A stretch of DNA of 32,000 nucleotides, from NCBI RefSeq assembly GCF_000143085.1, contig NC_014315.1, positions 638,307 through 670,306 on the forward strand, written 5' to 3'. Under the pieces are notes generated by a model. It was not told where the DNA came from. It ran no database searches and saw nothing but the letters and a program-made list of their open reading frames with translations. The DNA is from Nitrosococcus watsonii C-113 (GTDB lineage Bacteria > Pseudomonadota > Gammaproteobacteria > Nitrosococcales > Nitrosococcaceae). Position numbers and translations under genes: made by a program. Below are positions 3,523-24,367 of this stretch, piece by piece (within the stretch, counting starts at the first letter, position 1; every line of letters begins with the position of its first letter).

Positions 3523-3557
3523 TTTATAATTGCCTGTAATCCTTGGGAAGTAAGCTT

Positions 3558-5342: not shown

Positions 5343-5405
5343 GGGATTAAATTCTCCAAGGCCAAGATAGACTAAATATTAACCTGATTATCCATTAACC
5401 GACAA

Positions 5406-8902: not shown

Positions 8903-8947
8903 GGATAATGGGGAAGGCACCTTGCCTGCACCGGGCTTGGAGCAGAA

Positions 8948-10156
8948 GTGTCCTCGAAAGATAAAAAAGCTATGACGACAGTATTTCGTGCTTATTCTCA
9001 ATCCGATGCTTTGCGCTCTGATCGCAGCGCGAGGGATCGGTTGCGGCATCGACAGAAGGTTCGCAAAGCCATCCGTGATAATGTAGCTGACATTGTTGCT
9101 GAGGAGTCGATTATTGGCCGAAGCCGTGATCGTATTGTTAAAGTTCCCATTCGAGGTATTCGGGAATATCGTTTTGTTTATGGACAGAATACGCCAGGGG
9201 TAGGCACAGGCCAAGGGGATTCGGAGCCAGGCCAAACCGTTGGCCAGGCCCCTCAAGGAGATGGCGGCCCGGGTCATGCGGGTGGTCGTCCCGGCATGGA
9301 TTATTATGAGACGGAAATCACCCTGGAAGAGCTGATCGAGATCATGCTCGAAGACCTGGAGCTGCCAGATATGGAACGTAAACGTTTCCGTGAAGTGTTA
9401 TCGGAGCGTACCAGTAAACGAAAGGGTTTTCGCCGGGTTGGCGTGCGAGTCCATATGGATAAGCGACGCACGGCTAAATCTCGTATTCGACGGCGCTTAG
9501 CAAGCGATAAAGCCACGGGAGATAATGAGGCGAAGCACCGTTTCCCCTTCCATCGGGACGATATGCGCTATCATCGGCTGCGGGAGGATCTGCGTCCTCA
9601 GTCGAATGCGGTAGTGTTTTGTATTATGGATACTTCTGGCTCTATGGATACGTTAAAGAAGTACCTAGCGCGGAGCTTTTTCTTTTTGCTCTACCAGTTT
9701 GTCCGTTCCCGTTACGCTAATGTAGATGTGGTTTTTATTGCCCATCATACTAAAGCCCGGGAGGTGACGGAGGAAGAGTTTTTTCATAAAGGCGAATCGG
9801 GAGGCACCTTTATTTCTTCAGGTTATAGCAAGGCTTTAGAAGTCATTCAAAATCGTTACCACCCCTCATTGTGGAATATTTACGCTTTTCACTGCTCCGA
9901 TGGTGACAACTTTGATAGCGATAATGCTGCTACCTTAAAAGCTGCCGAGGAATTATGCCAAGTCTGTAATTTATTTGGTTATGGCGAAATTAAACCGCGG
10001 CCCTCGGGCTTCTATGAAGGGACCATGCTAGATTTGTTCCGTAATGTACGAGTGGATAATTTTCAATCGGTGTTAATCCAACGTAAGGAAGATATCTGGC
10101 CTAGTTTTAGGCAGCTGCTGTCCAGAGAGTCGGAGAGCAGCCAATATGATAAGTGA
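8948..10156 (+). CDS. yeaH: YeaH/YhbH family protein (DUF444, vWA-like)
   Basis: 402 aa in the conserved position after prkA. It has a DxSGS MIDAS-like motif (MDTSGSM). The start is GTG 8948 (GGAG 6 nt upstream) or ATG 8972. Confidence 0.88.
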   Translation: MSSKDKKAMTTVFRAYSQSDALRSDRSARDRLRHRQKVRKAIRDNVADIVAEESIIGRSRDRIVKVPIRGIREYRFVYGQNTPGVGTGQGDSEPGQTVGQAPQGDGGPGHAGGRPGMDYYETEITLEELIEIMLEDLELPDMERKRFREVLSERTSKRKGFRRVGVRVHMDKRRTAKSRIRRRLASDKATGDNEAKHRFPFHRDDMRYHRLREDLRPQSNAVVFCIMDTSGSMDTLKKYLARSFFFLLYQFVRSRYANVDVVFIAHHTKAREVTEEEFFHKGESGGTFISSGYSKALEVIQNRYHPSLWNIYAFHCSDGDNFDSDNAATLKAAEELCQVCNLFGYGEIKPRPSGFYEGTMLDLFRNVRVDNFQSVLIQRKEDIWPSFRQLLSRESESSQYDK

Positions 10157-10189
10157 ATTTGGTTGAAGTGAAAGGCTGGGATAAAAGGT

Positions 10190-11629
10190 ATGGCCAGTCA
10201 TTGGACAATTGAGGATCTTAAATATTGGGATGACAAGATTCGTGAAAAAGCCGATGAATTTGGCCTTTCTTGTTTTCCCCAGGAGTTTGAGATTTGCGAC
10301 CATACCCAAATGCTAGGCTATATGGCCTACTCGGGTATGCCAGCCCATTATCCTCACTGGTCTTATGGTAAAGCCTACGAGAAGCTCCAAACTCTTTACG
10401 AGCATGGGATGAGCGGGCTGCCCTATGAAATGGTGATTAATTCAAATCCTGCTTTGGCCTATTTAGTGCGGGAGAATTCTTTGTGTTTACAAATTCTGAC
10501 TATTGCTCATGTCTATGGGCATAATGATTTTTTCAAAAATAATTTTACCTTTCGCGATACTCAACCTGAATTAACGCTTTCTAACTTTAAACTTCGCGCT
10601 GATCGAGTACGGGACTATATTGAAGATCCCTCTATCGGACTTCATAAAACAGAAAGGCTGCTTGATGCGGCCCATGCTTTATCTTTGCAGTGCTGCAGGA
10701 ATCAAGCAATACGTAAACTGAGTGCTGACGAACAGAAAGAGCAGGTTGTGGCCGCCGCTCATCCTGCTCACGATCCCTACCAAGGATTGCATAAGCAGCG
10801 TGAGTATGTAGAGCCTGATTTGAATCGTTTTCCTTTGTTTCCTGAAGAGGATATTCTGCTGTTTATACGGGATAATAACCTTTATCTTGCCGATTGGGAG
10901 CGGGATTTGCTCACCATTGTGCATGAACAGGCACGCTATTTTATTCCTCAGATTGAAACCAAGATTATGAACGAGGGTTGGGCCAGCTATTGGCATCATA
11001 AGATCATGAATAGCATAGATTTACCTCAGGATCTCTATCTTGAATTTCTCGTTCATCACAACCAGGTGGTACGCCCCCACCCTGGCGATATTAATCCATA
11101 CTATTTAGGTTTTAAACTTTGGCATGATATCTCCCGTCGTTACCAGGAGATCTTTTCAGAAAAGGAGGGCGGCAGTAAGCTACAGAGGGAGGGACATGAA
11201 AAAATTTTCCAGGTTCGCGAGGTTGATCGGGATACTTCTTTTTTGCGCCGTTTTCTGACCGAAGAACTGATGCGCGAGATGGATATGTTTGAGTATCAGC
11301 CTAAAGGAGAAGACTTGGTTATTAGCAAGGTCTCTGATGAAGAACATTGGCATGAGATCAAAACAACCTTGCTAAAAAATGTAGGCATGGGGGGTATCCC
11401 TGTCATCCGGATTGAAGATGCTGATTATGGGCGCAATCGGCAGCTCTACCTTAAGCATGATCATGATGGTCGAGATCTCCAGACGGAATACGCCGAGAAA
11501 ACCCTTACCTACCTTTACCAGCTTTGGGGCAGAAGTGTATGGCTAGAAACCCGGATTAATGACAGAAGAGTGTGCCTAGGTTATGGGGAAGATGGATTTG
11601 TGCAAAAAACGCTAGGCCGTTTTCGTTGA
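10190..11629 (+). CDS. spoVR: SpoVR/YcgB family protein
   Basis: 479 aa and the third gene of the conserved prkA-yeaH-spoVR trio. It carries the HVYGHNDFFKNN and NEGWASYWH blocks typical of SpoVR. Confidence 0.88.
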   Translation: MASHWTIEDLKYWDDKIREKADEFGLSCFPQEFEICDHTQMLGYMAYSGMPAHYPHWSYGKAYEKLQTLYEHGMSGLPYEMVINSNPALAYLVRENSLCLQILTIAHVYGHNDFFKNNFTFRDTQPELTLSNFKLRADRVRDYIEDPSIGLHKTERLLDAAHALSLQCCRNQAIRKLSADEQKEQVVAAAHPAHDPYQGLHKQREYVEPDLNRFPLFPEEDILLFIRDNNLYLADWERDLLTIVHEQARYFIPQIETKIMNEGWASYWHHKIMNSIDLPQDLYLEFLVHHNQVVRPHPGDINPYYLGFKLWHDISRRYQEIFSEKEGGSKLQREGHEKIFQVREVDRDTSFLRRFLTEELMREMDMFEYQPKGEDLVISKVSDEEHWHEIKTTLLKNVGMGGIPVIRIEDADYGRNRQLYLKHDHDGRDLQTEYAEKTLTYLYQLWGRSVWLETRINDRRVCLGYGEDGFVQKTLGRFR

Positions 11630-11644
11630 CCATAAATGATGGGC

Positions 11645-11673
11645 TTGTCAGGAAGTATGATCGTTACTATACT
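11645..11673 (+). promoter_or_regulatory. Predicted sigma70-type promoter TTGTCA-N17-TATACT
   Basis: -35 at 11645-11650 and -10 at 11668-11673. It lies about 70 nt upstream of the 37-aa ORF. Confidence 0.4.
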
Positions 11674-11744
11674 ACGGCACTTTAGTCGCTATCTGGGCTA
11701 AATTGTCTCAATATAAAATCATCAAAATGTAAGGAGATTATAGA

Positions 11745-11858
11745 ATGGGAGCAATCCTCGAATTAGTCGATAAAATGTTCACCCCCATTGGATTTGTCGT
11801 GACTATAGGAATAATCGCCGGCATTTACTATTTTGTCCGTTGGCTTATGAAGGATTAG
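11745..11858 (+). CDS. Small hydrophobic protein, 37 aa (MGAILELVDKMFTPIGFVVTIGIIAGIYYFVRWLMKD), one predicted TM helix
   Basis: Below the ORF-track cutoff. An AAGGAG SD sequence (11731-11736) lies 8 nt before the ATG, with a candidate promoter upstream. The peptide has one clean TM segment with a C-terminal RW..K anchor. Confidence 0.4.
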   Translation: MGAILELVDKMFTPIGFVVTIGIIAGIYYFVRWLMKD

Positions 11859-12330
11859 GATAAAAAGCCAGCATGCATAAGAGGGGGATAGAAAATAGCC
11901 GTTTTTTGCCGAATTCTGACTATGTTCCCATTGAAATGCATATTGTTTAGAGTGGGATTGAATTCTAGGAGTGGAGTCTCCTTAGCAAGTTAAGAAAGTA
12001 AGCATCCCACATCTAATCTATTGTAAGAAGACGCAGGGGCACAAAAGCGTTGATGGAGATTTAGGTTAATTCAGCGTGTCTCTGCGCCTTCTAACCATTC
12101 ACTCAAAGCAGAAACCTTCCCATGCTTTTTTAGCTATTATGGTTTCCGCTTATCCTGCGTTTTCCTCTTTACTAACAGCAGACTTGAAATAGAAAATTCT
12201 TTAAATTTGCCATCAAGGAACTAAGCAGCGGTAAAGAGAACTAACATTACTAATTTTTAGCTAAAAAGCAAGTCTGGATAGGGAGTTCGGGCTGCCGCTA
12301 AATACCTAGTTGAATTCTTGATAAGGTTGT

Positions 12331-14022
12331 ATGTGTATGCAAATGATGAATATACGTCAAGCCTTCTTTGCCGTTGTGATAGGGTTAGGGAGTCTTGTTC
12401 TCCTGTTCCCTTCCATAGTGCGGTCGGCTCCCTACCAAAAGCCCCCAGCAGCTGAGAGCTTCAATCTTGCTGAGCTGGAGATCGAGCCGATGTGCCCCGA
12501 TGTGGATCCAGTTTGGCGAGAACGTCAGGTGATTGAGGGAATAACGGTGGAGGCATCGCCTCTTTGCGATCCGGATAATCCAGCAGATATCGCCACCTTC
12601 GTCAAAGGCGCGAATAATGTTTCCCATGACACCATCATGGAGACCCAGCTTGCGATGGATGTGGTCACCAAAGGCGAGGATCGGGATGGGGATGGGGATC
12701 CAGATGTCATCCATGTTCGATTAGAAGTGGCCGAGTTGAACGGATTCTCGCCAGATACTCCGGAGCCCATTCCTGCTTATTCGATTGCTCCGGGTGTTCA
12801 GCCTGGGTTCTGGGTTTTCGCCCCCAAGACTCAAGGCATGTCCACTCTTAACTTCGAGAGTTTACAAGCTAATGCTTATCTGCGAGCGCCTTCCCCCGTG
12901 ATCCGCGTTGAGCAGGGAGATACCATAAAGATTACTCTCGAGAACACCCATTATCTTCCCCATACGATCCATTTCCATGGAGTTGACCACCCTTTTGTGA
13001 CTGCAGCGGGCGAAGGGAACGACGGGGTTCCCCAAACCAGCGAGCTGCCCTTGATGCCGGGAGAGAGCCGTACTTACGAGATGACTCCCCGGCATGCGGG
13101 GACCATGCTTTACCACTGTCATGTTCAGCCCCATGCCCATATTGGAATGGGGTTGGTAGGGTTGATGGTGGTGGAAGAAAATCGTCCCAATAACTGGGTC
13201 CAGACCCTGAATGTAGGGGGAGGGCATGTACGTTATCCCTCAGTAGCGGTGAAAGAGACCTATGATCGAGAATATGACCTTCTTTATCAGAGCGTTGACA
13301 AGACCTTGGCGGATAAAATTAAGATAGCCAATGATGCGCGGTTAATCGCTAAAGGAATTAACCGTGATTATAATATTACCGAGAATCCATCTAATTATTT
13401 TTTGCTTAATGGTCGTTCTTTTCCCTATACCCTACGGGAATCGCTGATAGTGGTAAAACCCAACGAGTTAGTAAAGATTCGGATGGGGAACGCGGGTCAA
13501 GATCCTGCCTACATCCACAGTCATGGCCATAAGATGACGATTACCGCCTATGATGGAGCTCCTCATAACCCAGAAGCTTGGATCACGCGGGATGTTTATG
13601 AGCTGGGTCCCGCCCAGCGTATTGATCTTGCTTTGAATACCACTATTGACGGTTTGCATAGTTATGGAGAAGGAATCTGGCTTTTTCATGACCATACGGA
13701 GCGGGCTGTTACCACTGATGGGATGAATCCTGGCGGAGACGTGAGCAGCATTGTTTATGAGTCATTTCTTGGCGAAGAGGGTATGCCCCTCGGTAGGGGG
13801 GTTGATTTAAAACCCTATTTTAGTAAGGAGTTTTACCAAAAGGAAGTGCCGGTATGGGCAAATTTTGATCAAGAAAATCTGTTTGGCGAGATTAGCAAAG
13901 TACCAGCTCAACTTTCCATTCAGCCTGCTTTGCTGGCTTTTGGTGTGGGATTATTGCTTGGGGGTATCGTTATTGGGATTCGCTCAATCATGATCTTGAA
14001 GCGGCGCTCCAAGGAGGTATAA
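12331..14022 (+). CDS. Multicopper oxidase with two cupredoxin domains in type-C-like ligand order, an N-terminal extension and a C-terminal membrane anchor
   Basis: 563 aa with a signal-peptide-like N-terminus. Ligand motifs: HTIHFH (HxxHxH, nt 12961-12978), HCHVQPHAHIGM (HCHx3Hx4M, nt 13114-13149), HSHGH (res 396-400) and HDH (res 453-455). The C-terminal hydrophobic helix is followed by KRRSK. The start could be any of the ATGs at 12331-12346. Confidence 0.88.
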   Translation: MCMQMMNIRQAFFAVVIGLGSLVLLFPSIVRSAPYQKPPAAESFNLAELEIEPMCPDVDPVWRERQVIEGITVEASPLCDPDNPADIATFVKGANNVSHDTIMETQLAMDVVTKGEDRDGDGDPDVIHVRLEVAELNGFSPDTPEPIPAYSIAPGVQPGFWVFAPKTQGMSTLNFESLQANAYLRAPSPVIRVEQGDTIKITLENTHYLPHTIHFHGVDHPFVTAAGEGNDGVPQTSELPLMPGESRTYEMTPRHAGTMLYHCHVQPHAHIGMGLVGLMVVEENRPNNWVQTLNVGGGHVRYPSVAVKETYDREYDLLYQSVDKTLADKIKIANDARLIAKGINRDYNITENPSNYFLLNGRSFPYTLRESLIVVKPNELVKIRMGNAGQDPAYIHSHGHKMTITAYDGAPHNPEAWITRDVYELGPAQRIDLALNTTIDGLHSYGEGIWLFHDHTERAVTTDGMNPGGDVSSIVYESFLGEEGMPLGRGVDLKPYFSKEFYQKEVPVWANFDQENLFGEISKVPAQLSIQPALLAFGVGLLLGGIVIGIRSIMILKRRSKEV

Positions 14023-14029
14023 ATAGAAC

Positions 14030-15049
14030 ATGACGGGTTATCAATTATTCATAGTCAGCGCGGCGCTTATGTTGTCGTTAAGCGCCGCCGCCGTGGAATC
14101 AGCTGACGGCTCAAAGCAGAATAAGTCGCCGTCGGAGGCTGCCGCGCCGGAGCATCACCATGAGCATCCTAATGGCTCGGAATCTCAGAAAAAGTCACAG
14201 CTTGAGGCTGCGCCGGAAGAAAAAACTTCTACCCAGGTTCCGGCAACAGATGCCTCGACCGGAAGAGAAACAGTGGGAACTGAAGGGGAACCGGAGCATC
14301 ACCACCATCATGAACATGGTGCAAAGACAACAGATGTTAAGGTGACTTCCCCTCCTCAGAAAGAAGAGGGCCATATTCATCATGAATTTAAGCATGAGCA
14401 CCATATGATGGATATGGATGCTGAGGGTATGGTCATGAATGAGAACACGGATAATTTGCCCCGCGATTGCCCCAAACTTGCAGGTGATGTGGCAATTACG
14501 GTGCGAGCGGGAACTAAGTATGCTAAAGATTTTCCGGGAACGGTATTTGGCTATGATCAGCATGAGTGGAAGGTCAAGCCTTGTACCCGAATCACGGTCA
14601 CTTTTATCAATGAGGATGATATTCGCCACCAGTGGATGGTTCACATGCTGCCCGCGTATCTTTATCCTCAGGGAATGTTCCACCTTGAACTAGCTGGCCC
14701 TGGCCGCCGCACGGGAACTTTTATCGTACCGAGCGTGGAGAAAACTTATTTTGTCCATTGCGATATCGCTCAGCATACGGAAAAAGGAATGAAGGCTCAA
14801 TTGAAAGTAGGCGGTGGGGATCAGGATTTTCCTAGCATTCCTGGGTTAACCGCGCCGAATTATCCGGACTCGTATCAACAAGGAATAAGTTGGAGCGCCA
14901 TAGGTTCTTTTTTGGGCGCAGGGATAGCGGGTCTAGTTCTGGCGATGGTTGGCCTTGGTCGGCTTAGCAAAAAGGGTAAGGAATCACGGGAGCAAGTGCA
15001 GCAGGATCTCGAGTCAGAAACCAAACAGCGCAAACGGTGGTTCCTGTAA
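14030..15049 (+). CDS. Membrane-anchored type-1 (blue) copper protein / cupredoxin with a His/Met-rich N-terminal region
   Basis: 339 aa with a signal peptide. It has three His clusters (EHHHEH, EHHHHHEH, HIHHEFKHEHHMMDMD). The cupredoxin-like domain has H200...C244-x4-H249-x4-M254 (FVHCDIAQHTEKGM). A C-terminal TM helix (res about 288-311) is followed by a basic tail. The gene starts 7 nt after the MCO stop. Confidence 0.78.
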   Translation: MTGYQLFIVSAALMLSLSAAAVESADGSKQNKSPSEAAAPEHHHEHPNGSESQKKSQLEAAPEEKTSTQVPATDASTGRETVGTEGEPEHHHHHEHGAKTTDVKVTSPPQKEEGHIHHEFKHEHHMMDMDAEGMVMNENTDNLPRDCPKLAGDVAITVRAGTKYAKDFPGTVFGYDQHEWKVKPCTRITVTFINEDDIRHQWMVHMLPAYLYPQGMFHLELAGPGRRTGTFIVPSVEKTYFVHCDIAQHTEKGMKAQLKVGGGDQDFPSIPGLTAPNYPDSYQQGISWSAIGSFLGAGIAGLVLAMVGLGRLSKKGKESREQVQQDLESETKQRKRWFL

Positions 15050-15101
15050 TCAAATAGCCGACTATTATTACTGGGGAGTCATTAGGGTAAGGTCGCCCAA
15101 G

Positions 15102-15215
15102 ATAAATAACAGAACAGTTAAGTAGCAAAATGCTTACCTGTGTTTGCGGACAGGGGACGTAAGTAAATACAGGTAAGCGCGAAAGACCGTCACAAGGAAG
15201 CCCTCATATTCAACC
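15102..15215 (+). repeat. Structured intergenic element, copy 1 (10-bp perfect inverted repeat GCTTACCTGT / ACAGGTAAGC at 15132-15141 / 15169-15178)
   Basis: It shares ordered blocks with 17535-17642: ATAAATA, TTAAG, GCTTACCTGT (10/10), TAAGTAAATA (10/10), (C)AGGTA(A)GC and GGAAGC. Confidence 0.6.
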
Positions 15216-15343
15216 CCACGGCGCATTCTACTGCTTAAACGCCAAGTTTATTTATTTCGTGCCGTATCTCTAATTTGCAAAATTTTGGCTGAAGGATTGT
15301 TAAATCCTTACTTGCAGCACCAGGGTAGGGGTATAAGAAGGCA

Positions 15344-16201
15344 TTATTCCAGGATAGCTGTGCTCATAGATAAAAATGGCAAAACTCCATCTAGGCCGCT
15401 ATGATTAAGAGTTATGCGGGCTGCTGCCTGTACTTTTGGTTTAGCATGGTAAGCTATGCTAAGTCCCGCAACCTTCAACATCTCCAAATCATTAGCCCCA
15501 TCACCGATAGCGATTGTTTGCCAGGGTTTGATGGCTAATTTTTCGCATAGCATAAGTAAAAATTTGGCCTTAGCACTGGCTCCTACAATCTGGCCTGCAA
15601 GGGCACCGGTAAGCTGATTATTCCTAACTTCCAGCTGATTGGCCAACGTATAATCCAAATTGTATTCTTGCTTCAAACGCTCGGTAAAATAGGTAAAACC
15701 GCCAGAAACCAAGGCGATCTTAATATCGCGTTGTTTGAGTGCGGCGAGCAAGGCTTTCCCGCCCGGATTGAGGGTTAGATTCTTCTCATAGATTTCGGCG
15801 AGGGCATGGGCAGAAACACCTGCCAATAGCTTGACTCGTTGGATGAGCGAAGTTTCAAAATTGATTTCACCCTGCATAGCGGTGGTGGTGATTGCGCTGA
15901 CCCGTGCTTCTTTGCCGGTAAAGGCGGCAATTTCATTAATACATTCAATGTTAATAAAAGTGGAATCCATGTCGGTGATAAAAAGGCGTATTTGCTCAGG
16001 GTAGTAGTCCTCGGGAAAAAGGTTAATATCAAGATTGTTATGGGTTGAGTGTAGTATCGCTAAGGTTTGGGGGGAGAATGGCTGTTTGCTATAAAGCCGA
16101 TAATAAGATTCGTGTGAGCGAATCTCGGCATTCGTTTGTTGGGCAATCTTATTTGCGAGATCCCGAGTTAATTGGGACCCTTGAAGAATAAGCGTAGGCA
16201 T
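15344..16201 (-). CDS. serB: Phosphoserine phosphatase
   Basis: 285 aa with HAD motifs DMDSTFI (DxDxT), VSGGF and GDGANDL. An N-terminal ACT-like regulatory region is present, as in SerB. Confidence 0.88.
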   Translation of the reverse strand: MPTLILQGSQLTRDLANKIAQQTNAEIRSHESYYRLYSKQPFSPQTLAILHSTHNNLDINLFPEDYYPEQIRLFITDMDSTFINIECINEIAAFTGKEARVSAITTTAMQGEINFETSLIQRVKLLAGVSAHALAEIYEKNLTLNPGGKALLAALKQRDIKIALVSGGFTYFTERLKQEYNLDYTLANQLEVRNNQLTGALAGQIVGASAKAKFLLMLCEKLAIKPWQTIAIGDGANDLEMLKVAGLSIAYHAKPKVQAAARITLNHSGLDGVLPFLSMSTAILE

Positions 16202-16652: not shown

Positions 16653-17438
16653 ATGGCTGCAACTAGTAGAGCTGTAGCGCAAGGAGTAGCCGAGAAAGAA
16701 ACTGCTGATCTCTTTGCCTGGCGTGGCATGTGGTTAGCGGTCGCGGCCTTTTTCTTGTTTTACATTGGTGTGCGTTGGTATGAAGGTGTTTACGGCTGGA
16801 AGTATGGTTTAGACGCCTTTTCACCAGAATTCCAAACATACTGGATGAATCTGCTGTATATTGAACTCGTTGTTGAGGCGCTGGCAACGGCGGCCCTGGT
16901 TTCTTACCTGATTAAGACCCGGGATCGCAATATGGAAGCCATGACTCCCCGCGAGGAGTTGCGCCGTTACTGTACCCTTTACATGTGGTGGGTTGTTTAT
17001 GGCGTTGGGTTATTCTGGGGCGCAAGTTTCTTTACCGAGCAGGATGGTGCCTGGCATCAGACTGTGGTTCGCGACACCGATTTCACCCCAAGCCATATTA
17101 TTGAGTTCTACATGAGCTACCCAATCTACGTAATGGTGGGTTTAGGTTCGTTCACGTATGCTAAGACCCGTATTCCTTATTTTGCAAAGGGCTGGTCTGT
17201 ACCCTACCTCATGTTGGTGTTTGGACCCTTTATGATCTTCCCGAATGTGGGGCTGAATGAATGGGGTCACACCTTCTGGTTTATGGAAGAGCTATTTGTA
17301 GCACCTCTGCATTGGGGTTTTGTGTTCTTTGCCTGGTTTATCCTTGCGGTATTCGGCGTATTCTTGCAGGTGCAAGGTCGCATGAAGGAATTGCTCGGCA
17401 GGGAGCTTCAGCAGAGTGAAGATTATGCCCGTAGCTGA
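16653..17438 (+). CDS. amoC: Ammonia monooxygenase subunit C
   Basis: 261 aa polytopic membrane protein with AGGAGG 9 nt upstream of the ATG. It has AmoC/PmoC-like blocks (e.g. NEWGHTFWFMEELF) and is the first gene of the C-A-B order. Confidence 0.92.
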   Translation: MAATSRAVAQGVAEKETADLFAWRGMWLAVAAFFLFYIGVRWYEGVYGWKYGLDAFSPEFQTYWMNLLYIELVVEALATAALVSYLIKTRDRNMEAMTPREELRRYCTLYMWWVVYGVGLFWGASFFTEQDGAWHQTVVRDTDFTPSHIIEFYMSYPIYVMVGLGSFTYAKTRIPYFAKGWSVPYLMLVFGPFMIFPNVGLNEWGHTFWFMEELFVAPLHWGFVFFAWFILAVFGVFLQVQGRMKELLGRELQQSEDYARS

Positions 17439-17484
17439 GATATTTAAATTTAATTTCCAGCTGATTTAAAGGGTTGAGTAAAAG

Positions 17485-17534
17485 GGCGGTCGCAATCTCC
17501 AGAATAGTTAATGAGATGGCGACCGCCTCTTTGT
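17485..17534 (+). terminator. Strong hairpin plus T-rich tract downstream of amoC (partial terminator, processing site or stabiliser candidate)
   Basis: GGCGGTCGCAATCTC (17485-17499) pairs with GAGATGGCGACCGCC (17513-17527): 14 of 15 bp with a 13-nt loop. TCTTTGT follows. Confidence 0.5.
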
Positions 17535-17642
17535 ATAAATAGATTTATTATTAAGGATACGCTTACCTGTTCAGGTTGAAAGGAATGGAAGCAAGCAAGC
17601 TAATAAGTAAATAGGTAGCAGGAAGCATGCCTTTAGAATTCA
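17535..17642 (+). repeat. Structured intergenic element, copy 2 (imperfect inverted repeat GCTTACCTGT 17561-17570 / ATAGGTAGC 17611-17619)
   Basis: It has the same ordered sequence blocks as copy 1 at 15102-15215. The stem is retained as 9 bp with one bulge. Confidence 0.6.
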
Positions 17643-17666
17643 TGGATCTTTTGAGATCCCATGAAT
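17638..17666 (+). promoter_or_regulatory. Stem-loop in the amoA 5' region
   Basis: ATTCATGGATCT (17638-17649) pairs with AGATCCCATGAAT (17654-17666): 12 bp with one bulged C and a 4-nt loop. It lies 58 nt upstream of the amoA ATG. Confidence 0.45.
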
Positions 17667-17724
17667 AAATAATCATAAATTAGTTTAAATAGAACCCTTA
17701 ATATTTTTTAGGAGGGCAGGTTTA

Positions 17725-18468
17725 ATGAGTGCACTTACGTCTGCGGTTCGTACACCGGAGGAAGCTGCTAAAGTCTCTAGAACGCTAGATTTTTTAGCCT
17801 TAGGGGCTTTCTTTGGTATTTTATTGGCTTCCCATCATGTTCATGTCATGCTTTTAATGGGTGACTGGGATTTCTGGGTTGATTGGAAAGACCGGCGCTT
17901 TTGGGTCACCGTGGTTCCCATCGTATCGGTAGCTTATCCTGCTGCCGCACAGGCGTTTTTCTGGGAGAAGTTCCGCCTTCCCTTTGGCGCTACCCTGGTA
18001 ACGCTAGGAGTGTTAGCGGGTGAGTGGGCTAACCGCTACTTTAATTTCGTAGGGTTCACCTATTTCCCCATTAACTTCGTATGGCCAACCATCCTGCTGC
18101 CCATGGCGTTGTTCTTGGATGCCATGCTTGCGATCTCCAAGAGCTACGGCTTGACAGCGGTAGTGGGTGGGCTGATGTACGGCTTGTTGATGTACCCTGC
18201 TAACTGGCCGCTGCTTTCAGCATTCCATGTGCCGGCTGAGTACAATGGAGTAGTCATGTCCTTGGCCGATGTCGCGGGGTATCAATACGTCCGGACCGGC
18301 ACCCCCGAGTATATTCGGATGGTTGAGAAGGGTACCTTGAGAACGTTTGGTAAAGACGTGGTCCCGGTGTCAGCCTTTTTTGCGGGTTTTGTTGCTATGG
18401 TCATGTATTTCGTGTGGCACTTTGTCGGCCGCTGGTTCTCCAAGGATTACAGTGTCGACCAAGTGTAG
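17725..18468 (+). CDS. amoA: Ammonia monooxygenase subunit A
   Basis: 247 aa with AGGAGG 9 nt upstream. It carries the AmoA/PmoA hallmark blocks GDWDFWVDWKDRRFW and YVRTGTPEYIRMVEKGTLRTFGKD. Confidence 0.94.
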   Translation: MSALTSAVRTPEEAAKVSRTLDFLALGAFFGILLASHHVHVMLLMGDWDFWVDWKDRRFWVTVVPIVSVAYPAAAQAFFWEKFRLPFGATLVTLGVLAGEWANRYFNFVGFTYFPINFVWPTILLPMALFLDAMLAISKSYGLTAVVGGLMYGLLMYPANWPLLSAFHVPAEYNGVVMSLADVAGYQYVRTGTPEYIRMVEKGTLRTFGKDVVPVSAFFAGFVAMVMYFVWHFVGRWFSKDYSVDQV

Positions 18469-18524
18469 ATATCGTGTGCGATAAGAGGATAACAACTCTA
18501 AAAATTCTAAAACATAATAGAGAG

Positions 18525-19784
18525 ATGGAGAACATGAAAGGTACCCATATAACAAATCGAGCCAAAAAATGGCTAGCCATTGGGTTTACTGCGGTGATAG
18601 CCTCAAGCGTTTTCTATATTCCGACAGTGGCCGCCCATGGTGAGAAGGCGCAGGCAGCCTTCCTGCGCATGCGGACAATTCATTGGTATGACATGGTATG
18701 GTCCAAGGATACCATTGCGGTTAATGAGACCTATACCATAAGCGGCAAGTTCCGGGTTTTTGAGGATTGGCCGGAAGCAGTCGAAGTACCCCATGTGTCC
18801 TTTTTAAATGCGGGTCAACCCGGACCAGTCACAACCCGGCTCACTTCTTATATCAATGGTATGTTCGTCCCTCGGTCGATAGGCCTTGAATTAGGCGGCG
18901 ATTACGAGTTTGAGATGACGATGCAAGGGCGCCGTCCTGGCACCTGGCATGTGCATACTCTGCTAAATGTCCAAGGTGGGGGACCGCTCATCGGTCCAGG
19001 TAAATACATCACCATTACTGGAGATATGGCAGACTTTGAGAACAAAGTCACAGATCTAACCGGTAATACGGTCAACCTGGAAACCATGGCCACGGGTACG
19101 GTTATTGGCTGGCATCTATTCTGGTACGTACTTGGTATCGCCTGGATCGTGTGGTGGGCCCGTCGCCCCATGTTCTTGCCCCGCTACATGAGAGTAGAGG
19201 CGGGAGAGGCTAATGATCTAGTGACCGCCCAAGACAAAAAAGTGACTATCGGTGTTCTTGTGGGCGTCCTGCTCATTGTTTTGTTCGGCTATAAGAGTGC
19301 TGAGGAAAAATTCCCAGTCACTATTCCTTTGCAAGCTGGGCTGCTGGGCACTATTGAGCCGTTGCCGGTAGATTATAATTCGATGGTAAGCGCTAAAGTG
19401 CTTAAGGCTAACTATCGGGTGCCGGGGCGGACTATCACCATGACGGTTGAGCTCACTAATCATACTGATCAGGTGCTTTCTATCGGTGAGTTCAATACGG
19501 GAGGCATCCGCTTCATGAATGCCAATGTGCGGAGCGATGATACAGGTTATCCTGAGGAGTTGCTGGCGCCGGAAGGGCTGGAAATGAGCCAGCAGGATAT
19601 CGCTCCGGGTGAAACTGTGGTTGTTGATATTTCCGCCACCGATGCTGCTTGGGAAGTGCAGCGTATGGCTGACGTTATTTACGATCCAGACAGCCGCTTT
19701 GCGGGATTGATATTCTTTATTGATCCAGAGGGGAATGAGATTCCGATACCTGTCGGTGGTCCATTAGTTCCTACGTTTGTCTAG
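18525..19784 (+). CDS. amoB: Ammonia monooxygenase subunit B
   Basis: A signal peptide ends ...PTVAA|HGEKAQAAFLRMRTIHWYD, and WHVH follows later. Together these give the His set described for the PmoB CuB site. Two TM helices separate two cupredoxin-like domains. The start is ATG 18525 or ATG 18534; the ORF-track start at 18414 overlaps amoA and is rejected. Confidence 0.92.
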   Translation: MENMKGTHITNRAKKWLAIGFTAVIASSVFYIPTVAAHGEKAQAAFLRMRTIHWYDMVWSKDTIAVNETYTISGKFRVFEDWPEAVEVPHVSFLNAGQPGPVTTRLTSYINGMFVPRSIGLELGGDYEFEMTMQGRRPGTWHVHTLLNVQGGGPLIGPGKYITITGDMADFENKVTDLTGNTVNLETMATGTVIGWHLFWYVLGIAWIVWWARRPMFLPRYMRVEAGEANDLVTAQDKKVTIGVLVGVLLIVLFGYKSAEEKFPVTIPLQAGLLGTIEPLPVDYNSMVSAKVLKANYRVPGRTITMTVELTNHTDQVLSIGEFNTGGIRFMNANVRSDDTGYPEELLAPEGLEMSQQDIAPGETVVVDISATDAAWEVQRMADVIYDPDSRFAGLIFFIDPEGNEIPIPVGGPLVPTFV

Positions 19785-19878
19785 GGGCAGTATTTTAAAC
19801 TATCCTATATTGTGTGTGGTGTGTATGTGCTGCATAGATATAAGTAGGTTGAATTGCTCGCATTGACTTAAAAAGGCT

Positions 19879-19920
19879 GGCCCTTCGTCCTATCGCTGGA
19901 CGAAGGGCCGGTTGTTTGTT
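19879..19920 (+). terminator. Rho-independent terminator-like hairpin after amoB
   Basis: A perfect 12-bp GC-rich stem, GGCCCTTCGTCC (19879-19890) with GGACGAAGGGCC (19898-19909), has a 7-nt loop. GGTTGTTTGTT follows. Confidence 0.7.
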
Positions 19921-20019
19921 GGTCGTCCTTTCCATTTCTTTTTTTACCTTGTGGCTCAGTCTTTTCAGGCTCTGGAGCTGCGTTTTAATCAACTCCTCAG
20001 GGCAAAAAGGTATTGGCTT

Positions 20020-20583
20020 ATGAAAAAAATACTACTTAGCTGCCTTCTATCGTTAGGATTGCTGTTGCTAAATACCTCCGCCATGGCTCATGGGGGAGGA
20101 GGAATTGAAGTAGATACGTGTGTTGTTAATATCGGTAGTTACCGGATGCATTTTTCTGCTTACCAACCAGAAACCTCTGGTGGTGAAGAGTTGTGCTGGG
20201 ATTTGCCGATGACGGGAAGCACTATTTTAGTGTTTGATTTAGTGGATAGAATATTGCGTGATCGGCCGGTTGAAGTTCGGATTGTTGAAGAACGGAAAAC
20301 GGCTGCTGGTCCAGCGAATTATAAAACTATAGTAGAGCGGCCCGCTCAAAAATATCCAAAGGGAACCATTGAGCTTGATACCGAGTTTACTAAGGCAGGA
20401 GCGTATACTGCGGTAGTTATTGTTGGTGGTGAGCAGGCGTTGGTCTTCAAAACCCCTATCCGAGTGGGGCTTGGGGGAGGTCAAGATTTGCAATGGATTG
20501 CCTCGATCGCTGGTGGTGCCCTTATTCTGGGGCTTGCTTTTTGGTATAGCCGCCGCCGCGGAAAGGAAGCAAAAGCAACCTAG
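20020..20583 (+). CDS. amoD: AmoD/PmoD (orf5)-like periplasmic copper-protein candidate with a C-terminal membrane anchor
   Basis: 187 aa counted from ATG 20020. The signal peptide is MKKILLSCLLSLGLLLLNTSAMA|HGGGG. A beta-rich periplasmic domain carries Cys34, Met43-His44, Cys59 and Met64. The C-terminal TM helix (WIASIAGGALILGLAFWY) is followed by RRRGK. Its position directly after amoB matches amoD in Nitrosococcus and pmoD in methanotrophs. Confidence 0.72.
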   Translation: MKKILLSCLLSLGLLLLNTSAMAHGGGGIEVDTCVVNIGSYRMHFSAYQPETSGGEELCWDLPMTGSTILVFDLVDRILRDRPVEVRIVEERKTAAGPANYKTIVERPAQKYPKGTIELDTEFTKAGAYTAVVIVGGEQALVFKTPIRVGLGGGQDLQWIASIAGGALILGLAFWYSRRRGKEAKAT

Positions 20584-21348: not shown

Positions 21349-21356
21349 TTTCCTAT

Positions 21357-21380
21357 GGAGAGGCATAGGTATGCCTCTCC
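21357..21380 (+). terminator. Hairpin immediately after the lipoprotein gene
   Basis: A perfect 10-bp stem, GGAGAGGCAT with ATGCCTCTCC, has a 4-nt loop. The T-run is not directly adjacent; TTTAATTTTT starts 12 nt later. Confidence 0.4.
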
Positions 21381-21423
21381 TAAGCCAAACGTTTAATTTT
21401 TGGCTTTTAAGGTATTTTTTATA

Positions 21424-22693: not shown

Positions 22694-22726
22694 ATCACGG
22701 GTACCTTCCATACTATTATTAGTTGG

Positions 22727-23743: not shown

Positions 23744-23774
23744 CGCGTTTATGTAAAATCTTTAGAAATAATGC

Positions 23775-24356: not shown

Positions 24357-24367
24357 ATTCAGCTCCC

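What the first reader, a model, noticed from the sequence alone, without database searches (positions are those of the whole stretch)
12331..15049. Membrane-anchored type-C-like two-domain multicopper oxidase plus membrane-anchored His/Met-rich cupredoxin: a two-gene copper operon next to amoCABD
Seen in sequence, ORF 12331-14022:
- Its copper-ligand motifs run HxxHxH (H211/H214/H216), then HCHx3Hx4M (H262-C263-H264, H268, M273), then HxHxH (H396-400), then HxH (H453/455).
- The blue-copper site therefore sits in the first of two cupredoxin domains.
- The protein also has a signal-peptide-like N-terminus, about 160 extra N-terminal residues and a C-terminal TM helix followed by KRRSK.

Seen in sequence, ORF 14030-15049 (7 nt downstream):
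- It encodes a signal peptide, a His/Met-rich stretch and a single cupredoxin domain, followed by a C-terminal TM helix.
- The cupredoxin domain has the same C-x4-H-x4-M spacing (C244/H249/M254).

Established knowledge:
- That motif order defines type-C two-domain MCOs, the class of the structurally characterised Nitrosomonas europaea MCO.
- Ammonia oxidisers need copper for AMO.
- The enzyme that converts NO (the proposed product of hydroxylamine oxidoreductase) to nitrite has not been firmly identified.

Inference:
- A membrane-tethered oxidase with a tethered blue-copper partner, one gene away from amoCABD, could have either of two roles.
- It could be a copper-handling (cuprous oxidase / loading) module for AMO.
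- It could be a periplasmic electron-transfer or N-oxide-oxidising module.
- I do not know of a described function for this tethered pair.
Basis: partly seen in the sequence, partly recalled or inferred. Interest (0 to 1): 0.75.

Follow-up and report, generated by a model that had tools for sequence, protein, structure and literature searches.

The report
Tethered copper oxidase pair beside AMO
Next to the ammonia monooxygenase genes of Nitrosococcus sit two always-paired genes, a membrane-anchored copper oxidase and a membrane-anchored blue-copper protein with a copper-catching tail. The same pair sits inside or near methane-, alkane- and ammonia-monooxygenase gene clusters in several bacterial phyla, so it is probably an undescribed copper-handling accessory of these enzymes.

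Summary
The window is Nitrosococcus watsonii. ORF 12331-14022 is a type-C two-domain multicopper oxidase (MCO). It has a conserved ~120-residue N-terminal extension that matches nothing known, and a C-terminal membrane anchor. ORF 14030-15049 (CUP) is a C-terminally anchored cupredoxin behind a His/Met-rich arm, and it has no Pfam, NCBIfam or PDB sequence match.

One correction: the conserved type-1 copper His of the MCO is H270, not H268.

- **Pairing.** The two genes are neighbours in 75 of 80 related loci, with a median gap of -4 nt.
- **Link to the monooxygenase.** The pair sits directly behind xmoCAB(D) in 15 of 57 testable loci (Binatia, Methylomirabilota, assorted Proteobacteria). Most other carriers are methanotrophs. 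Synteny with amoCABD holds across gamma ammonia oxidisers.
- **Fusions.** MCO::CUP and CopC-CopD::CUP fusion proteins exist. In Skermanella aerolata the latter lies in xmoCAB-xmoD-MCO-YcnI-like-CopCD::CUP, beside a copper storage protein gene.
- **Not a resistance island.** No plasmid homologue was found.

Best reading (about 0.5): a split cuprous oxidase that serves the copper supply of copper membrane monooxygenases. I found no published description of the pair. New variant of a known kind; interest 0.7.

The parts
12331..14022 (+). MCO gene (563 aa from the first ATG; GenBank starts it at 12337 or 12343). It encodes a membrane-anchored type-C two-domain multicopper oxidase.
   Evidence: Pfam Cu-oxidase_2, _3 and Cu-oxidase. 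Best PDB sequence matches 2zwn and 3g5w. AlphaFold2 model pLDDT 88.5, pTM 0.84. Foldseek best hits 2zwn and 3g5w.
12346..12432 (+). N-terminal hydrophobic helix of the MCO (aa 6-34): a Sec-type signal peptide or signal anchor with no twin-arginine motif.
   Evidence: Hydropathy 2.48. Helix 2-25 in the model. Only 12 of 61 homologues match an RR-like pattern.
12433..12795 (+). Family-specific N-terminal extension of the MCO (aa ~35-155). It has invariant C55 and C79 and an invariant D117-x-D-x-D-G-D-P-D125 loop, which looks like a calcium-binding loop (inference).
   Evidence: Invariant columns in 61 homologues. pLDDT 93-98. No Pfam match. Not covered by any PDB hit, TMq 0.45 or less. No plasmid homologue.
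12796..13200 (+). Cupredoxin domain 1 of the MCO. It carries the T1 copper site (H211, C263, H270, M273) and four ligands of the trinuclear copper cluster (TNC): H214, H216, H262, H264.
   Evidence: Alignment to 3g5w and 2zwn. Residue invariance.
13378..13770 (+). Cupredoxin domain 2 of the MCO. It carries the other four TNC ligands (H396, H398, H453, H455).
   Evidence: Alignment to 3g5w residues 163-277. Residue invariance.
13912..14019 (+). C-terminal TM anchor of the MCO (aa 528-557) and basic cytoplasmic tail (KRRSKEV).
   Evidence: Hydropathy. Helix 530-560 in the model. TM segment present in 61 of 61 homologues.
14011..14017 (+). Shine-Dalgarno-like AAGGAGG for CUP, inside the last codons of the MCO gene. 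This suggests translational coupling.
   Evidence: Read from the sequence. The MCO-CUP gap is 41 nt or less in 69 of 71 loci, median -4.
14030..15049 (+). CUP gene (339 aa): signal peptide, His-rich acidic linker, His/Met arm, single T1 cupredoxin domain, C-terminal TM anchor and a basic tail.
   Evidence: No Pfam, NCBIfam or PDB sequence match. More than 2,700 homologues. Model pLDDT 81.6. Foldseek best hits are CueO (multicopper oxidase) chains and auracyanin.
14105..14446 (+). His-rich, low-complexity periplasmic linker of CUP (16 His in aa 25-150; HHHEH and HHHHHEH runs). It ends in the family-wide His/Met motif H115..HEHHMMDMD..GMVMNEN (aa 115-139).
   Evidence: Composition. H122, H124, M127 and M129 are at least 90% conserved, and D130, V135, M136 and N139 are invariant. 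Median of 6 His and 3 Met in the 30 residues before the domain in 54 homologues.
14429..14824 (+). Cupredoxin domain of CUP. T1 ligands are H200, C244, H249 and M254. Additional invariant residues are H205, H243 and D245. An invariant Cys pair (C147, C185) is probably a disulfide.
   Evidence: Residue invariance. Beta-sandwich fold with strands 200-205 and 238-243. Weak HMM match to auracyanin 6kol aligning 'VHCDVAQHTEKGM' with 'FLCTYPAHYAGGM'.
14885..14968 (+). C-terminal TM anchor of CUP (aa 286-313).
   Evidence: Hydropathy. Long helix in the model. Present in 55 of 59 homologues.
11745..11858 (+). Possible third component: a conserved 37-aa single-TM microprotein (MGAILELVDKMFTPIGFVVTIGIIAGIYYFVRWLMKD).
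   Evidence: Homologues lie just upstream of MCO-CUP in unrelated genomic backgrounds (L092, L002, L009-L011) and beside xmoC in Skermanella and L032. Annotated only as a hypothetical protein.
16653..20583 (+). amoC (16653-17438), amoA (17725-18468), amoB (18414-19784) and amoD (19912-20583). This is the CuMMO operon with which the pair is syntenic.
   Evidence: Pfam AmoC, AMO and Monooxygenase_B. NCBIfam AmoC_BACT. The amoD homologue class is Cx8MH.

Best explanation
The two genes encode one periplasm-facing, membrane-tethered copper oxidase split into two polypeptides. It belongs to the copper supply chain of copper membrane monooxygenases, here AMO.

**Proposed mechanism.**
1. Both proteins are exported and held on the outer face of the (intra)cytoplasmic membrane by C-terminal anchors. 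This step rests on sequence features only.
2. The disordered His/Met-rich arm of CUP captures Cu(I), or Cu(II), in the periplasm. This step is inferred.
3. The copper is oxidised next to the CUP blue-copper centre. It may sit at a second site formed by the invariant H205, H243 and D245. These residues occupy the positions that bind interfacial copper in nitrite reductase and in MCO domains. This step is inferred.
4. The electron passes from the CUP T1 site to the T1 site in domain 1 of the (presumably trimeric) MCO, and then to its trinuclear cluster, which reduces O2 to water. The ligand set is shown; the electron path is inferred.
5. The Cu(II) product is handed to Cu(II)-specific periplasmic binders and importers (CopC/CopD, YcnI-like proteins, PmoD/AmoD) that metallate the monooxygenase, while toxic Cu(I) is kept low. 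This step is inferred from gene fusions and neighbourhoods.

The logic resembles an oxidase-permease couple (Fet3p-Ftr1p, FtrB-FtrC) applied to copper.
For: **Catalytic equipment.**
- A complete T1 site plus eight TNC histidines are invariant in 61 MCO homologues.
- The fold and sequence are closest to the type-C two-domain MCOs 3g5w and 2zwn.
- CUP keeps an invariant His-Cys-His(-Met) T1 set in a confidently predicted cupredoxin fold.
- CUP is preceded by a conserved His/Met-rich arm.

**The two proteins act together.**
- They are adjacent in 75 of 80 loci, with a median gap of -4 nt.
- Three independent MCO::CUP fusion proteins exist: P0283, P0312 and P0380.

**Tie to CuMMO.**
- xmoC-A-(x)-B-(D)-MCO-CUP lies on one strand in 15 of 57 loci that have enough upstream sequence, and also in L081-L085 and L094.
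- A PmoD/AmoD homologue lies directly upstream of the MCO in 5 further loci.
- By my count of the record titles, about 43 of the 80 best genome loci are named as Methylococcales methanotrophs and 10 as Binatia, and one is Methylomirabilota.
- Synteny with amoCABD is conserved in N. halophilus, N. wardiae and Ca. Nitrosoglobus.

**Tie to copper trafficking.**
- CopC-CopD-(FixH-like)-CUP fusions exist (P0257, P0270).
- In Skermanella aerolata the cluster reads xmoCAB-xmoD-MCO-DUF1775 (YcnI-like)-CopCD::CUP-...-PepSY_TM, with a Csp copper storage protein gene alongside.
- YcnI and YcnJ are a Cu(II)-exchanging uptake pair (PMC12154828, PMC8424229).

**Not a generic resistance island.** No CUP or N-extension homologue was found in 72,556 plasmids.

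Against: - No expression, genetic or biochemical data exist for any member. The N. oceani microarray supplement is truncated before these genes.
- In most methanotroph loci, and in several Gammaproteobacteria MAGs, the pair sits among housekeeping genes. No xmo or cop gene lies within about 10 kb.
- One Ca. Nitrosoglobus MAG carries a decayed MCO next to an intact CUP. The MCO is therefore dispensable in at least one ammonia oxidiser, or CUP can work alone.
- MCO substrate specificity cannot be read from sequence. Phenols, Fe(II), Mn(II), hydroxylamine or a protein partner are not excluded.
- The direction of copper flow (supply versus detoxification) is not resolved.
- The proposed second copper site on CUP rests on motif position only. 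I could not inspect model coordinates.
Confidence: 0.5

Rival explanations
1. Generic periplasmic Cu(I) detoxification. The chemistry is the same (a CueO- or CopI-like cuprous oxidase), but the role is protective. It would be kept by organisms with a very high periplasmic copper flux, and it would not feed copper to the monooxygenase.
For: - His/Met arm plus cupredoxin, as in CopI.
- A full MCO ligand set.
- Many carriers keep the pair away from xmo genes, among housekeeping genes.
Against: - No homologue in 72,556 plasmids, which are rich in pco/cop islands.
- The pair is placed inside xmoCAB(D) operons.
- CUP is fused to a CopC-CopD importer rather than to efflux components.
- The CUP family is small: 258 cluster representatives in 1.84 billion. 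The 80 best genome loci come mostly from CuMMO lineages.
Confidence: 0.2
2. Electron-transfer module. CUP would be a membrane-anchored blue-copper carrier, like auracyanin, that exchanges electrons with the monooxygenase or the respiratory chain. The MCO would be an alternative terminal oxidase or safety valve that drains excess electrons to O2.
For: - The CUP fold is close to auracyanin.
- The genes share an operon with xmoCAB.
- Tethered cupredoxin domains act as built-in electron donors in extended nitrite reductases and in Nmar_1354, which are among the fold hits (6the, 9cck).
- The physiological reductant of CuMMOs is unresolved (my background knowledge, not checked here).
Against: - An MCO can only pass electrons to O2, so it cannot deliver them to the monooxygenase.
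- The conserved His/Met arm and the CopCD fusion are hard to explain for a pure electron carrier.
Confidence: 0.12
3. Oxidation of a nitrogen intermediate (hydroxylamine or NO).
For: - The pair is adjacent to amoCABD in gamma ammonia oxidisers.
- Nmar_1354, a two-domain MCO with an extra cupredoxin, oxidises NH2OH (PMC11761707 as cited in PMC13058606). It appears among the structural hits as 9cck.
Against: - The family is found mostly in methanotrophs, in Binatia whose clusters carry alcohol and GMC oxidoreductase genes, and in the non-nitrifier Skermanella.
- The copper-trafficking fusions and neighbours argue for a metal substrate.
- No Nitrosomonas, Nitrosospira or Nitrospira names appear in the lists I saw. 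Those lists are truncated by score.
Confidence: 0.05
4. Manganese, iron or phenol oxidase (laccase-like) unrelated to the monooxygenase. This is what the 'manganese oxidase' label on some homologues suggests.
For: JGI names several homologues 'manganese oxidase'. The closest solved relative, 2zwn, was deposited as a two-domain type laccase.
Against: - The label is an automatic transfer. Such homology is known to predict function poorly (10.1101/2024.12.25.630300).
- It explains neither the obligatory CUP partner, nor the CuMMO linkage, nor the CopCD fusion.
Confidence: 0.05

Closest known systems
Type-C two-domain multicopper oxidases: Nitrosomonas europaea blue copper oxidase (PDB 3G5W) and metagenomic mgLAC (PDB 2ZWN)
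   Same: - Two cupredoxin domains, with the T1 site in domain 1.
- The same HCH-x5-H-x2-M loop.
- Eight TNC histidines split four and four between the domains.
- Best sequence matches (E 1e-30 to 1e-33) and best fold matches.
   Different: - Only about 24% identity over the core.
- The window protein adds a conserved ~120-aa N-terminal extension with a Cys pair and a DxDxDGDPD loop, and a C-terminal TM anchor.
- It is always paired with CUP.
- The N. europaea enzyme is soluble. From memory, it is encoded in the nirK cluster.
CopI, the periplasmic copper-tolerance cupredoxin of Rubrivivax gelatinosus
   Same: [quoted passage not shown]
- The proposed model is Cu(I) capture followed by oxidation at the cupredoxin centre (PMC13308877).
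   Different: - CUP is membrane-anchored.
- Its His/Met motif lies N-terminal to the domain rather than inside it.
- It carries the extra invariant H205, H243 and D245.
- It is genetically coupled to an MCO and to CuMMO clusters.
- Homology to CopI was not tested because I had no CopI sequence.
CueO, PcoA and CopA three-domain cuprous oxidases
   Same: - MCO chemistry, with a Met-rich Cu(I) substrate region next to the T1 site.
- CUP's nearest structural matches are CueO chains.
   Different: - Here the oxidase is a two-domain (trimer-type) MCO with no Met-rich insert of its own.
- The Met/His-rich element and an extra T1 site sit on a separate polypeptide.
- There is no Tat motif.
- It is not found on plasmids.
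Two-domain MCO or NirK cores with a tethered extra cupredoxin: N. maritimus Nmar_1354 (PDB 9CCK) and cupredoxin-extended nitrite reductases (e.g. 6THE)
   Same: A trimer-type two-domain copper core plus one additional T1 cupredoxin. The MCO::CUP fusions P0283, P0312 and P0380 reproduce this architecture in a single chain.
   Different: - In the window the cupredoxin is a separate, anchored protein with a metal-binding arm.
- The core has a full trinuclear cluster and is not a nitrite-reductase T2 site.
- The genomic context is copper trafficking, not N-oxide metabolism.
Oxidase-permease metal uptake couples (yeast Fet3p-Ftr1p; bacterial FtrABCD with the cupredoxin FtrB)
   Same: A copper oxidase or cupredoxin is coupled physically or genetically to a membrane permease for the metal it oxidises. 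The CopC-CopD::CUP fusion has the same logic (FtrB in PMC11966278).
   Different: - Those systems handle iron.
- Copper oxidation coupled to CopCD import has not been shown for any system. This is analogy only.
Known CuMMO operon accessories: PmoD/AmoD, CopC, CopD, PCuAC (Fisher et al. 2018, PMC6189053) and the YcnI/YcnJ copper uptake proteins
   Same: Periplasm-facing copper proteins encoded in or next to pmo/amo operons. xmoD homologues lie directly upstream of the MCO in about a third of the loci.
   Different: - MCO and CUP are different families.
[quoted passage not shown]
- The Binatota genome paper does not mention them at all.

Membership tests
Type-C two-domain multicopper oxidase | Two cupredoxin domains, not three or six | tested here: met
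   Pfam domains at aa 181-284 and 347-437. The model aligns to the two-domain MCOs 2zwn and 3g5w with TMt 0.74-0.78.
Type-C two-domain multicopper oxidase | T1 copper ligands (His, Cys, His, Met) in the N-terminal domain only | tested here: met
H211, C263 and H270 are invariant and M273 is kept in 59 of 61. Domain 2 has no Cys motif.
Type-C two-domain multicopper oxidase | Eight His ligands of the trinuclear cluster, four from each domain | tested here: met
   H214, H216, H262, H264, H396, H398, H453 and H455 are invariant in 61 homologues and align with 3g5w.
Type-C two-domain multicopper oxidase | Homotrimer with the cluster at subunit interfaces | not testable with these tools
   Only a monomer could be modelled. 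Trimer formation is inferred from homology.
Type-C two-domain multicopper oxidase | Four-copper content and oxidase activity | not testable with these tools
   Needs purified protein.
Type-1 (blue) cupredoxin | Greek-key beta-sandwich fold | tested here: met
   CUP model: domain pLDDT about 90-98 with ten predicted strands. Foldseek best hits are CueO chains and auracyanin, E about 1e-7.
Type-1 (blue) cupredoxin | His ... Cys-xn-His-xn-Met ligand set | tested here: met
   H200, C244 and H249 are invariant and M254 is kept in 55 of 59, with Leu in the rest. The loop aligns with that of auracyanin.
Type-1 (blue) cupredoxin | Membership of a curated cupredoxin family model | tested here: not met
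   No Pfam or NCBIfam hit for the window protein. Some homologues give faint PF07731 hits. It is a distinct family of 258 representatives.
CueO/PcoA/CopA-type cuprous oxidase | Three-domain MCO with a Met-rich insert over the T1 site and Tat export | tested here: not met
   Two domains only. The sole low-confidence loop (aa 222-236) is not Met-rich. No twin-arginine motif. NCBIfam scores are far below the cut-offs: CueO 38 against 525, and copper_res_A 44 against 479.
Copper-containing nitrite reductase (NirK) | A T2 site with three His instead of a trinuclear cluster | tested here: not met
   The MCO has all eight cluster histidines. NCBIfam Cu_nitrite_red scores 41 against a cut-off of 296.
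Copper-containing nitrite reductase (NirK) | His at +5 from the T1 His, and His immediately before the T1 Cys (the two T2 ligands supplied by the T1 domain) | tested here: inconclusive
   CUP has invariant H205 (+5 from H200) and H243 (-1 from C244). The same positions are cluster ligands in the window's own MCO (H216, H262). A third ligand and copper occupancy are unknown, and I could not access model coordinates.
CopI copper-tolerance cupredoxins | Sequence homology to R. gelatinosus CopI, with an internal conserved His/Met segment | not tested
   I had no CopI sequence. The resemblance is architectural only.
Manganese oxidase MoxA/MnxG (label on some homologues) | Demonstrated Mn(II) oxidation or orthology to a characterised Mn oxidase | not tested
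   Only an automatic JGI name. No comparison with MoxA was possible.

The most novel reading that the evidence does not exclude
MCO-CUP, perhaps together with the 37-aa microprotein, is a previously unrecognised and widely conserved maturation factor of bacterial copper membrane monooxygenases.
- It would be an oxidase-coupled copper relay that converts periplasmic Cu(I) to Cu(II).
- It would hand that Cu(II) to CopC/CopD-, YcnI- and PmoD/AmoD-type proteins.
- AMO, pMMO and related alkane monooxygenases would not be properly metallated without it.
- CUP would carry a second, nitrite-reductase-like interfacial copper site (H205, H243, D245) that serves as the substrate copper site.

If true, this could be one of the missing ingredients for producing active CuMMOs in foreign hosts.
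Probability: 0.25. Interest if true: 0.85.

Novelty: new variant of a known kind. Interest (0 to 1): 0.7.

Why it matters
Ammonia and particulate methane monooxygenases control key steps of the nitrogen and carbon cycles. How they obtain their copper, and which accessory proteins they need, is still open. PmoD/AmoD and CopCD are the only operon-encoded helpers that have been studied (PMC6189053).

This analysis shows three things:
- A specific MCO and cupredoxin pair recurs in CuMMO operons of several phyla.
- The pair is syntenic with amoCABD in all gamma ammonia oxidisers sampled.
- It is linked to the CopCD importer by gene fusion.

That gives a concrete candidate that can be tested genetically for the copper redox step of CuMMO metallation. 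Several carriers are cultured, including Nitrosococcus, Methylobacter marinus and Skermanella aerolata.

The analysis also defines a protein family (CUP) that has no Pfam or NCBIfam model. And it flags that these MCOs are being labelled 'manganese oxidase' in metagenome annotation.

Tried and rejected
- **Profile comparison.** An hhalign comparison of the CUP family against the MCO family gave only a 27-column, non-significant match. The equivalence of CUP H205 and H243 to cluster-ligand positions therefore rests on motif spacing and predicted strands, not on an alignment.
- **PDB sequence searches with CUP.** A single-sequence search found nothing meaningful. A family profile found only auracyanin, at E 0.004.
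- **Expression evidence.** The N. oceani microarray paper (PMC3772326) lists amoCABD and downstream genes but not the genes upstream of amoC. Its supplement is truncated near Noc_0173. The N. oceani genome paper is not held. Searches for Noc_2504 to Noc_2507 found nothing.
- **Literature.** Ten searches found no description of the pair.
- **RNA and promoters.** Rfam found no RNA family in the window. Promoter-like sites were no more frequent than in shuffled sequence. Terminator-like hits were more frequent than in shuffles (14 against 5.4), but none marks the end of the pair.
- **Manganese-oxidase reading.** Rejected because it rests on a label only.
- **Nitrifier-specific N-oxide oxidase reading.** Rejected because of the family's taxonomic spread.
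- **Generic copper-resistance island reading.** Weakened by the lack of any plasmid homologue.

Full report
**Source and anatomy**

The window comes from Nitrosococcus watsonii. ORF 14030-15049 is 100% identical to an N. watsonii protein, and ORF 12331-14022 is identical over GenBank's 561 residues to the 'multicopper oxidase type 3' of strain C-113.

The local gene order is as follows:

| Coordinates | Strand | Gene |
|---|---|---|
| 6944-11629 | + | prkA-yhbH-spoVR |
| 12331-14022 | + | the oxidase (MCO) |
| 14030-15049 | + | the cupredoxin (CUP) |
| 15344-16201 | - | serB |
| 16653-20583 | + | amoC, amoA, amoB, amoD |
| 20836-21861 | + | two small ORFs |
| 21899-25846 | - | four tryptophan-pathway genes (IGPS, glycosyl transferase family 3, GATase, anthranilate synthase component I) |

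**Check of the observation**

- The MCO scores on Pfam Cu-oxidase_2, Cu-oxidase_3 and Cu-oxidase.
- Its best solved relatives are the two-domain oxidases 2zwn (E 1.9e-33) and N. europaea 3g5w (E 3.2e-30). These align over residues 185-287 and 352-480.
- The HCH motif is in the first cupredoxin domain, so the enzyme is type C.
- An AlphaFold2 model built on 61 homologues is confident (pLDDT 88.5, pTM 0.84).
- Foldseek again ranks 2zwn and 3g5w first, followed by nitrite reductases.

In the 61-sequence alignment these residues are invariant: H211, H214, H216, H262, C263, H264, H396, H398, H453 and H455. M273 is kept in 59 of 61.

One assignment needs correcting. H268 is Gln in 31 of 61 homologues. 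H270 is invariant and aligns with the His of 'HCHVNVNEHVTM' in 3g5w.

**Family-specific features of the MCO**

- Residues ~35-155 are a highly conserved extension with invariant C55 and C79 and an invariant D117-x-D-x-D-G-D-P-D125 loop.
- The extension is modelled with pLDDT 93-98.
- It has no Pfam match, is not covered by any PDB hit (TMq 0.45 or less), and has no plasmid homologue.
- A C-terminal TM helix followed by basic residues is present in 61 of 61 homologues.
- The N-terminus is a Sec-type hydrophobic helix without a twin-arginine motif.

**CUP**

CUP has no hit in Pfam, NCBIfam or the PDB by sequence. Its C-terminal ~190 residues are nevertheless 55-70% identical to more than 2,700 proteins of about 225 aa.

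The family is small and tight. Only 258 cluster representatives (50% identity) reach E 1e-3 or better among 1.84 billion, and 99 reach E 1e-30 or better.

The model (pLDDT 81.6, domain ~90-98) is a cupredoxin sandwich followed by a long TM helix. Its nearest structural matches are CueO chains and the membrane-anchored blue-copper protein auracyanin. A family profile weakly finds auracyanin and aligns the Cys-His-Met loop.

Conserved residues in 59 homologues:
- H200, C244 and H249 are invariant, and M254 is kept in 55 of 59. These form the T1 site.
- C147 and C185 are invariant and probably form a disulfide.
- H205, H243 and D245 are also invariant.

H205 lies five residues after the T1 His, and H243 immediately precedes the T1 Cys. 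In the window's own MCO these two positions are trinuclear-cluster (TNC) ligands (H216 and H262). From established knowledge of NirK, they are also the two T2 ligands supplied by the T1 domain (His100 and His135 in Achromobacter numbering). I therefore infer that CUP may bind a second copper at an interface or on its surface. This is not shown.

Just before the domain, all family members carry a His/Met motif of the form H-x-H-H-x-M-x-M-D...G-M-V-M-N-E-N, with a median of 6 His and 3 Met in 30 residues. Nitrosococcus adds about 100 further His-rich acidic residues.

**The two genes form one unit**

An MCO homologue that includes the N-terminal extension lies directly upstream of CUP in 75 of the 80 best loci from species-representative genomes. 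The other five are cut by contig ends.

The ORF-based gap is 41 nt or less in 69 of 71 loci, with a median of -4. In the window the gap is 7 nt, and a Shine-Dalgarno-like AAGGAGG sits inside the MCO stop region.

Three independent fusion proteins join the extended MCO to a CUP domain: P0283, P0312 and P0380. P0380 has no intervening TM helices.

**Association with copper membrane monooxygenases (CuMMO)**

The record titles of the best 80 loci, by my count:
- about 43 are named as Methylococcales methanotrophs (Methylobacter, Methylomarinum, Methyloglobulus and others);
- 10 are Binatia and one is Methylomirabilota;
- the rest are unclassified Proteobacteria MAGs.

Gene order in these loci:
- Among 57 loci with at least 5 kb upstream of the MCO, 15 have xmoA and xmoB directly upstream on the same strand. 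The order is xmoC-xmoA-(small ORF)-xmoB-(xmoD)-MCO-CUP.
- Five more have only a PmoD/AmoD homologue directly upstream.
- Independent look-ups on contigs of 0.5-5.5 Mb show the same order. Luciferase-like, GMC and zinc alcohol dehydrogenase genes follow, or in some contigs precede, which suggests alkane or alcohol oxidation.
- In N. halophilus, N. wardiae and a Ca. Nitrosoglobus MAG, the window's synteny is conserved: spoVR | MCO-CUP | CBS-domain gene and serB on the minus strand | amoCABD.
- Elsewhere the pair sits among housekeeping genes, for example pcnB-folK-panBCD | MCO-CUP | pntAB.

**Association with copper trafficking**

Two family representatives, P0257 and P0270, are CopC-CopD-(FixH-like)-CUP fusions. 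P0257 is from the cultured alphaproteobacterium Skermanella aerolata.

The Skermanella locus reads as follows:
- xmoC, xmoA and xmoB, which are 64%, 63% and 46% identical to the window's AmoC, AmoA and AmoB;
- an xmoD-like gene;
- the MCO (46% identical to the window's);
- a DUF1775 (YcnI-like) gene;
- the CopCD::CUP fusion;
- GFA, DUF2946 and PepSY_TM genes;
- a Csp copper storage protein gene on the other strand.

YcnI and YcnJ are a Cu(II)-exchanging uptake pair in Bacillus (PMC12154828, PMC8424229). Skermanella's CuMMO was already known to nest next to that of Nitrosococcus (PMC6215863).

Neither the CUP domain nor the MCO extension has any homologue in 72,556 plasmids. This argues against a generic copper-resistance island.

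**Most likely mechanism**

What is shown:
- both proteins have a full set of copper ligands;
- both face the periplasm on membrane tethers;
- their genes are translationally coupled;
- they occur as natural fusions with each other and with CopCD.

What is inferred:
1. CUP's flexible His/Met arm captures Cu(I).
2. The metal is oxidised beside the CUP T1 centre, possibly at the H205/H243/D245 site.
3. The electron moves to the T1 site in MCO domain 1 and then to the trinuclear cluster, which reduces O2.
4. Cu(II) is released to Cu(II)-specific binders (CopC, YcnI-like, PmoD/AmoD) that feed the monooxygenase.

[quoted passage not shown] The closest architectural precedents for 'two-domain core plus extra cupredoxin' are Nmar_1354 (9cck) and the cupredoxin-extended nitrite reductases, both among the fold hits. 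The coupling to an importer resembles oxidase-permease systems such as Fet3p-Ftr1p and FtrB-FtrC, by analogy only.

I put about 0.5 on the supply role and about 0.2 on a purely protective cuprous-oxidase role. That is about 0.7 on cuprous-oxidase chemistry overall.

**Rival explanations**

- **Electron-carrier or terminal-oxidase role (0.12).** It fits the auracyanin-like fold and the operon position. It does not explain the metal-binding arm or the CopCD fusion.
- **Hydroxylamine or NO oxidase (0.05).** It fits the position next to amo and the Nmar_1354 precedent. It conflicts with the predominance of methane and alkane oxidisers and of Skermanella among carriers.
- **Manganese oxidase (0.05).** The name on some homologues is an automatic label.

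**Caveats**

- No experimental data exist for any member of either family.
- The genome lists are truncated by score. I cannot show that every carrier has a CuMMO, nor that beta-AOB, comammox or alpha-methanotrophs lack the pair.
- One Nitrosoglobus MAG has a decayed MCO next to an intact CUP.
- I could not inspect model coordinates.

**Novelty**

The MCO gene is annotated, and the fold class is known. I did not find the following in ten literature searches:
- the obligatory partnership with a distinct, unmodelled cupredoxin family;
- the conserved N-terminal extension;
- the membrane tethering;
- the recurrent placement behind xmoCAB(D) across phyla;
- the fusions to CopCD.

[quoted passage not shown] The Binatota genome paper describes CAB, CAxB and pmoD but never mentions an oxidase.

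I class this as a new variant of a known kind, a split and tethered cuprous-oxidase-type system dedicated to CuMMO organisms. Interest is 0.7.

Noticed in passing
window 11745-11858 (+); also L087 8324-8437, L088 7617-7730, L089 7628-7741, L092 6561-6674, L002 ~7800-7913, L009 ~5898-6008, L010 ~7249-7359, L011 ~7254-7364, L090 2289-2399 (-), L032 ~2506-2620 (-): A conserved 37-aa single-TM microprotein (MGAILELVDKMFTPIGFVVTIGIIAGIYYFVRWLMKD), annotated only as a hypothetical protein. It lies just upstream of MCO-CUP in gamma ammonia oxidisers, where it follows spoVR, and in unrelated Gammaproteobacteria MAGs, where it follows panD. It lies beside xmoC in Skermanella and in L032. It was not detected in the Methylococcales or Binatia loci. 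It may be a third component of the module, or a small CuMMO-associated subunit.
   Followed up: partly
L087 9051-9951 (Ca. Nitrosoglobus MAG, GCA_052906565.1): The MCO gene is a pseudogene here. tblastn finds pieces for aa 28-102, 294-474 and 497-549 in three different frames. Residues 103-293, the T1/cluster domain 1, are deleted. The downstream CUP is intact and carries expanded HEHHMMDMD-type repeats (388 aa). Another Nitrosoglobus MAG has an intact MCO (P0133).
   Followed up: partly
L090 (Skermanella aerolata KACC 11604, AVFK01000047.1) 3498-15482: A cultured non-methanotroph and non-nitrifier carries xmoCAB-xmoD-MCO-DUF1775 (YcnI-like)-CopC/CopD/CUP fusion-GFA-DUF2946-PepSY_TM, with a Csp copper storage protein gene alongside. 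This is an unusually complete copper-trafficking suite within one CuMMO cluster.
   Followed up: partly
window 20836-21348 (+) and L005 10590-11108: The 170-aa ORF after amoD occupies the position of N. oceani Noc_2499, which that study reports as strongly induced by ammonium (PMC3772326). It has a 50%-identical homologue immediately downstream of CUP in a Gammaproteobacteria MAG. This hints that more of the small amo-cluster ORFs belong to the same functional set.
   Followed up: no
homologues P0129, P0136, P0193, P0203, P0224: Several close homologues of this MCO are named 'manganese oxidase' by JGI. This is probably an automatic label transfer, and it could inflate counts of Mn-oxidation genes in metagenome surveys of methanotrophs and nitrifiers.
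   Followed up: no
window 15049-15344 compared with L087-L089: N. halophilus, N. wardiae and the Nitrosoglobus MAG have a CBS-domain gene of 116-150 aa on the minus strand between CUP and serB. The window has only a 295-nt gap there.
   Followed up: no
L093 7337-9000: In one metagenomic contig the MCO is split into two called genes (268 and 285 aa). This could be a frameshift, a pseudogene or a long-read indel error. Upstream lie a Ni_hydr_CYTB-type cytochrome b gene and a 189-aa ORF.
   Followed up: no
L012, L025, L037, L039, L044, L048, L049 (downstream of CUP); L014 (between MCO and CUP): In several Binatia-type loci a gene of about 590 aa follows CUP directly. From its sequence I judged it a PQQ-dependent (XoxF/MxaF-like) dehydrogenase, but I did not run it against Pfam. 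In L014 a member of this cluster lies between the MCO and CUP on the opposite strand.
   Followed up: no
window 6944-11629: A prkA-yhbH(DUF444)-spoVR triad lies directly upstream of the pair. It is syntenic with the pair in all gamma ammonia oxidisers examined, but not in other carriers.
   Followed up: no
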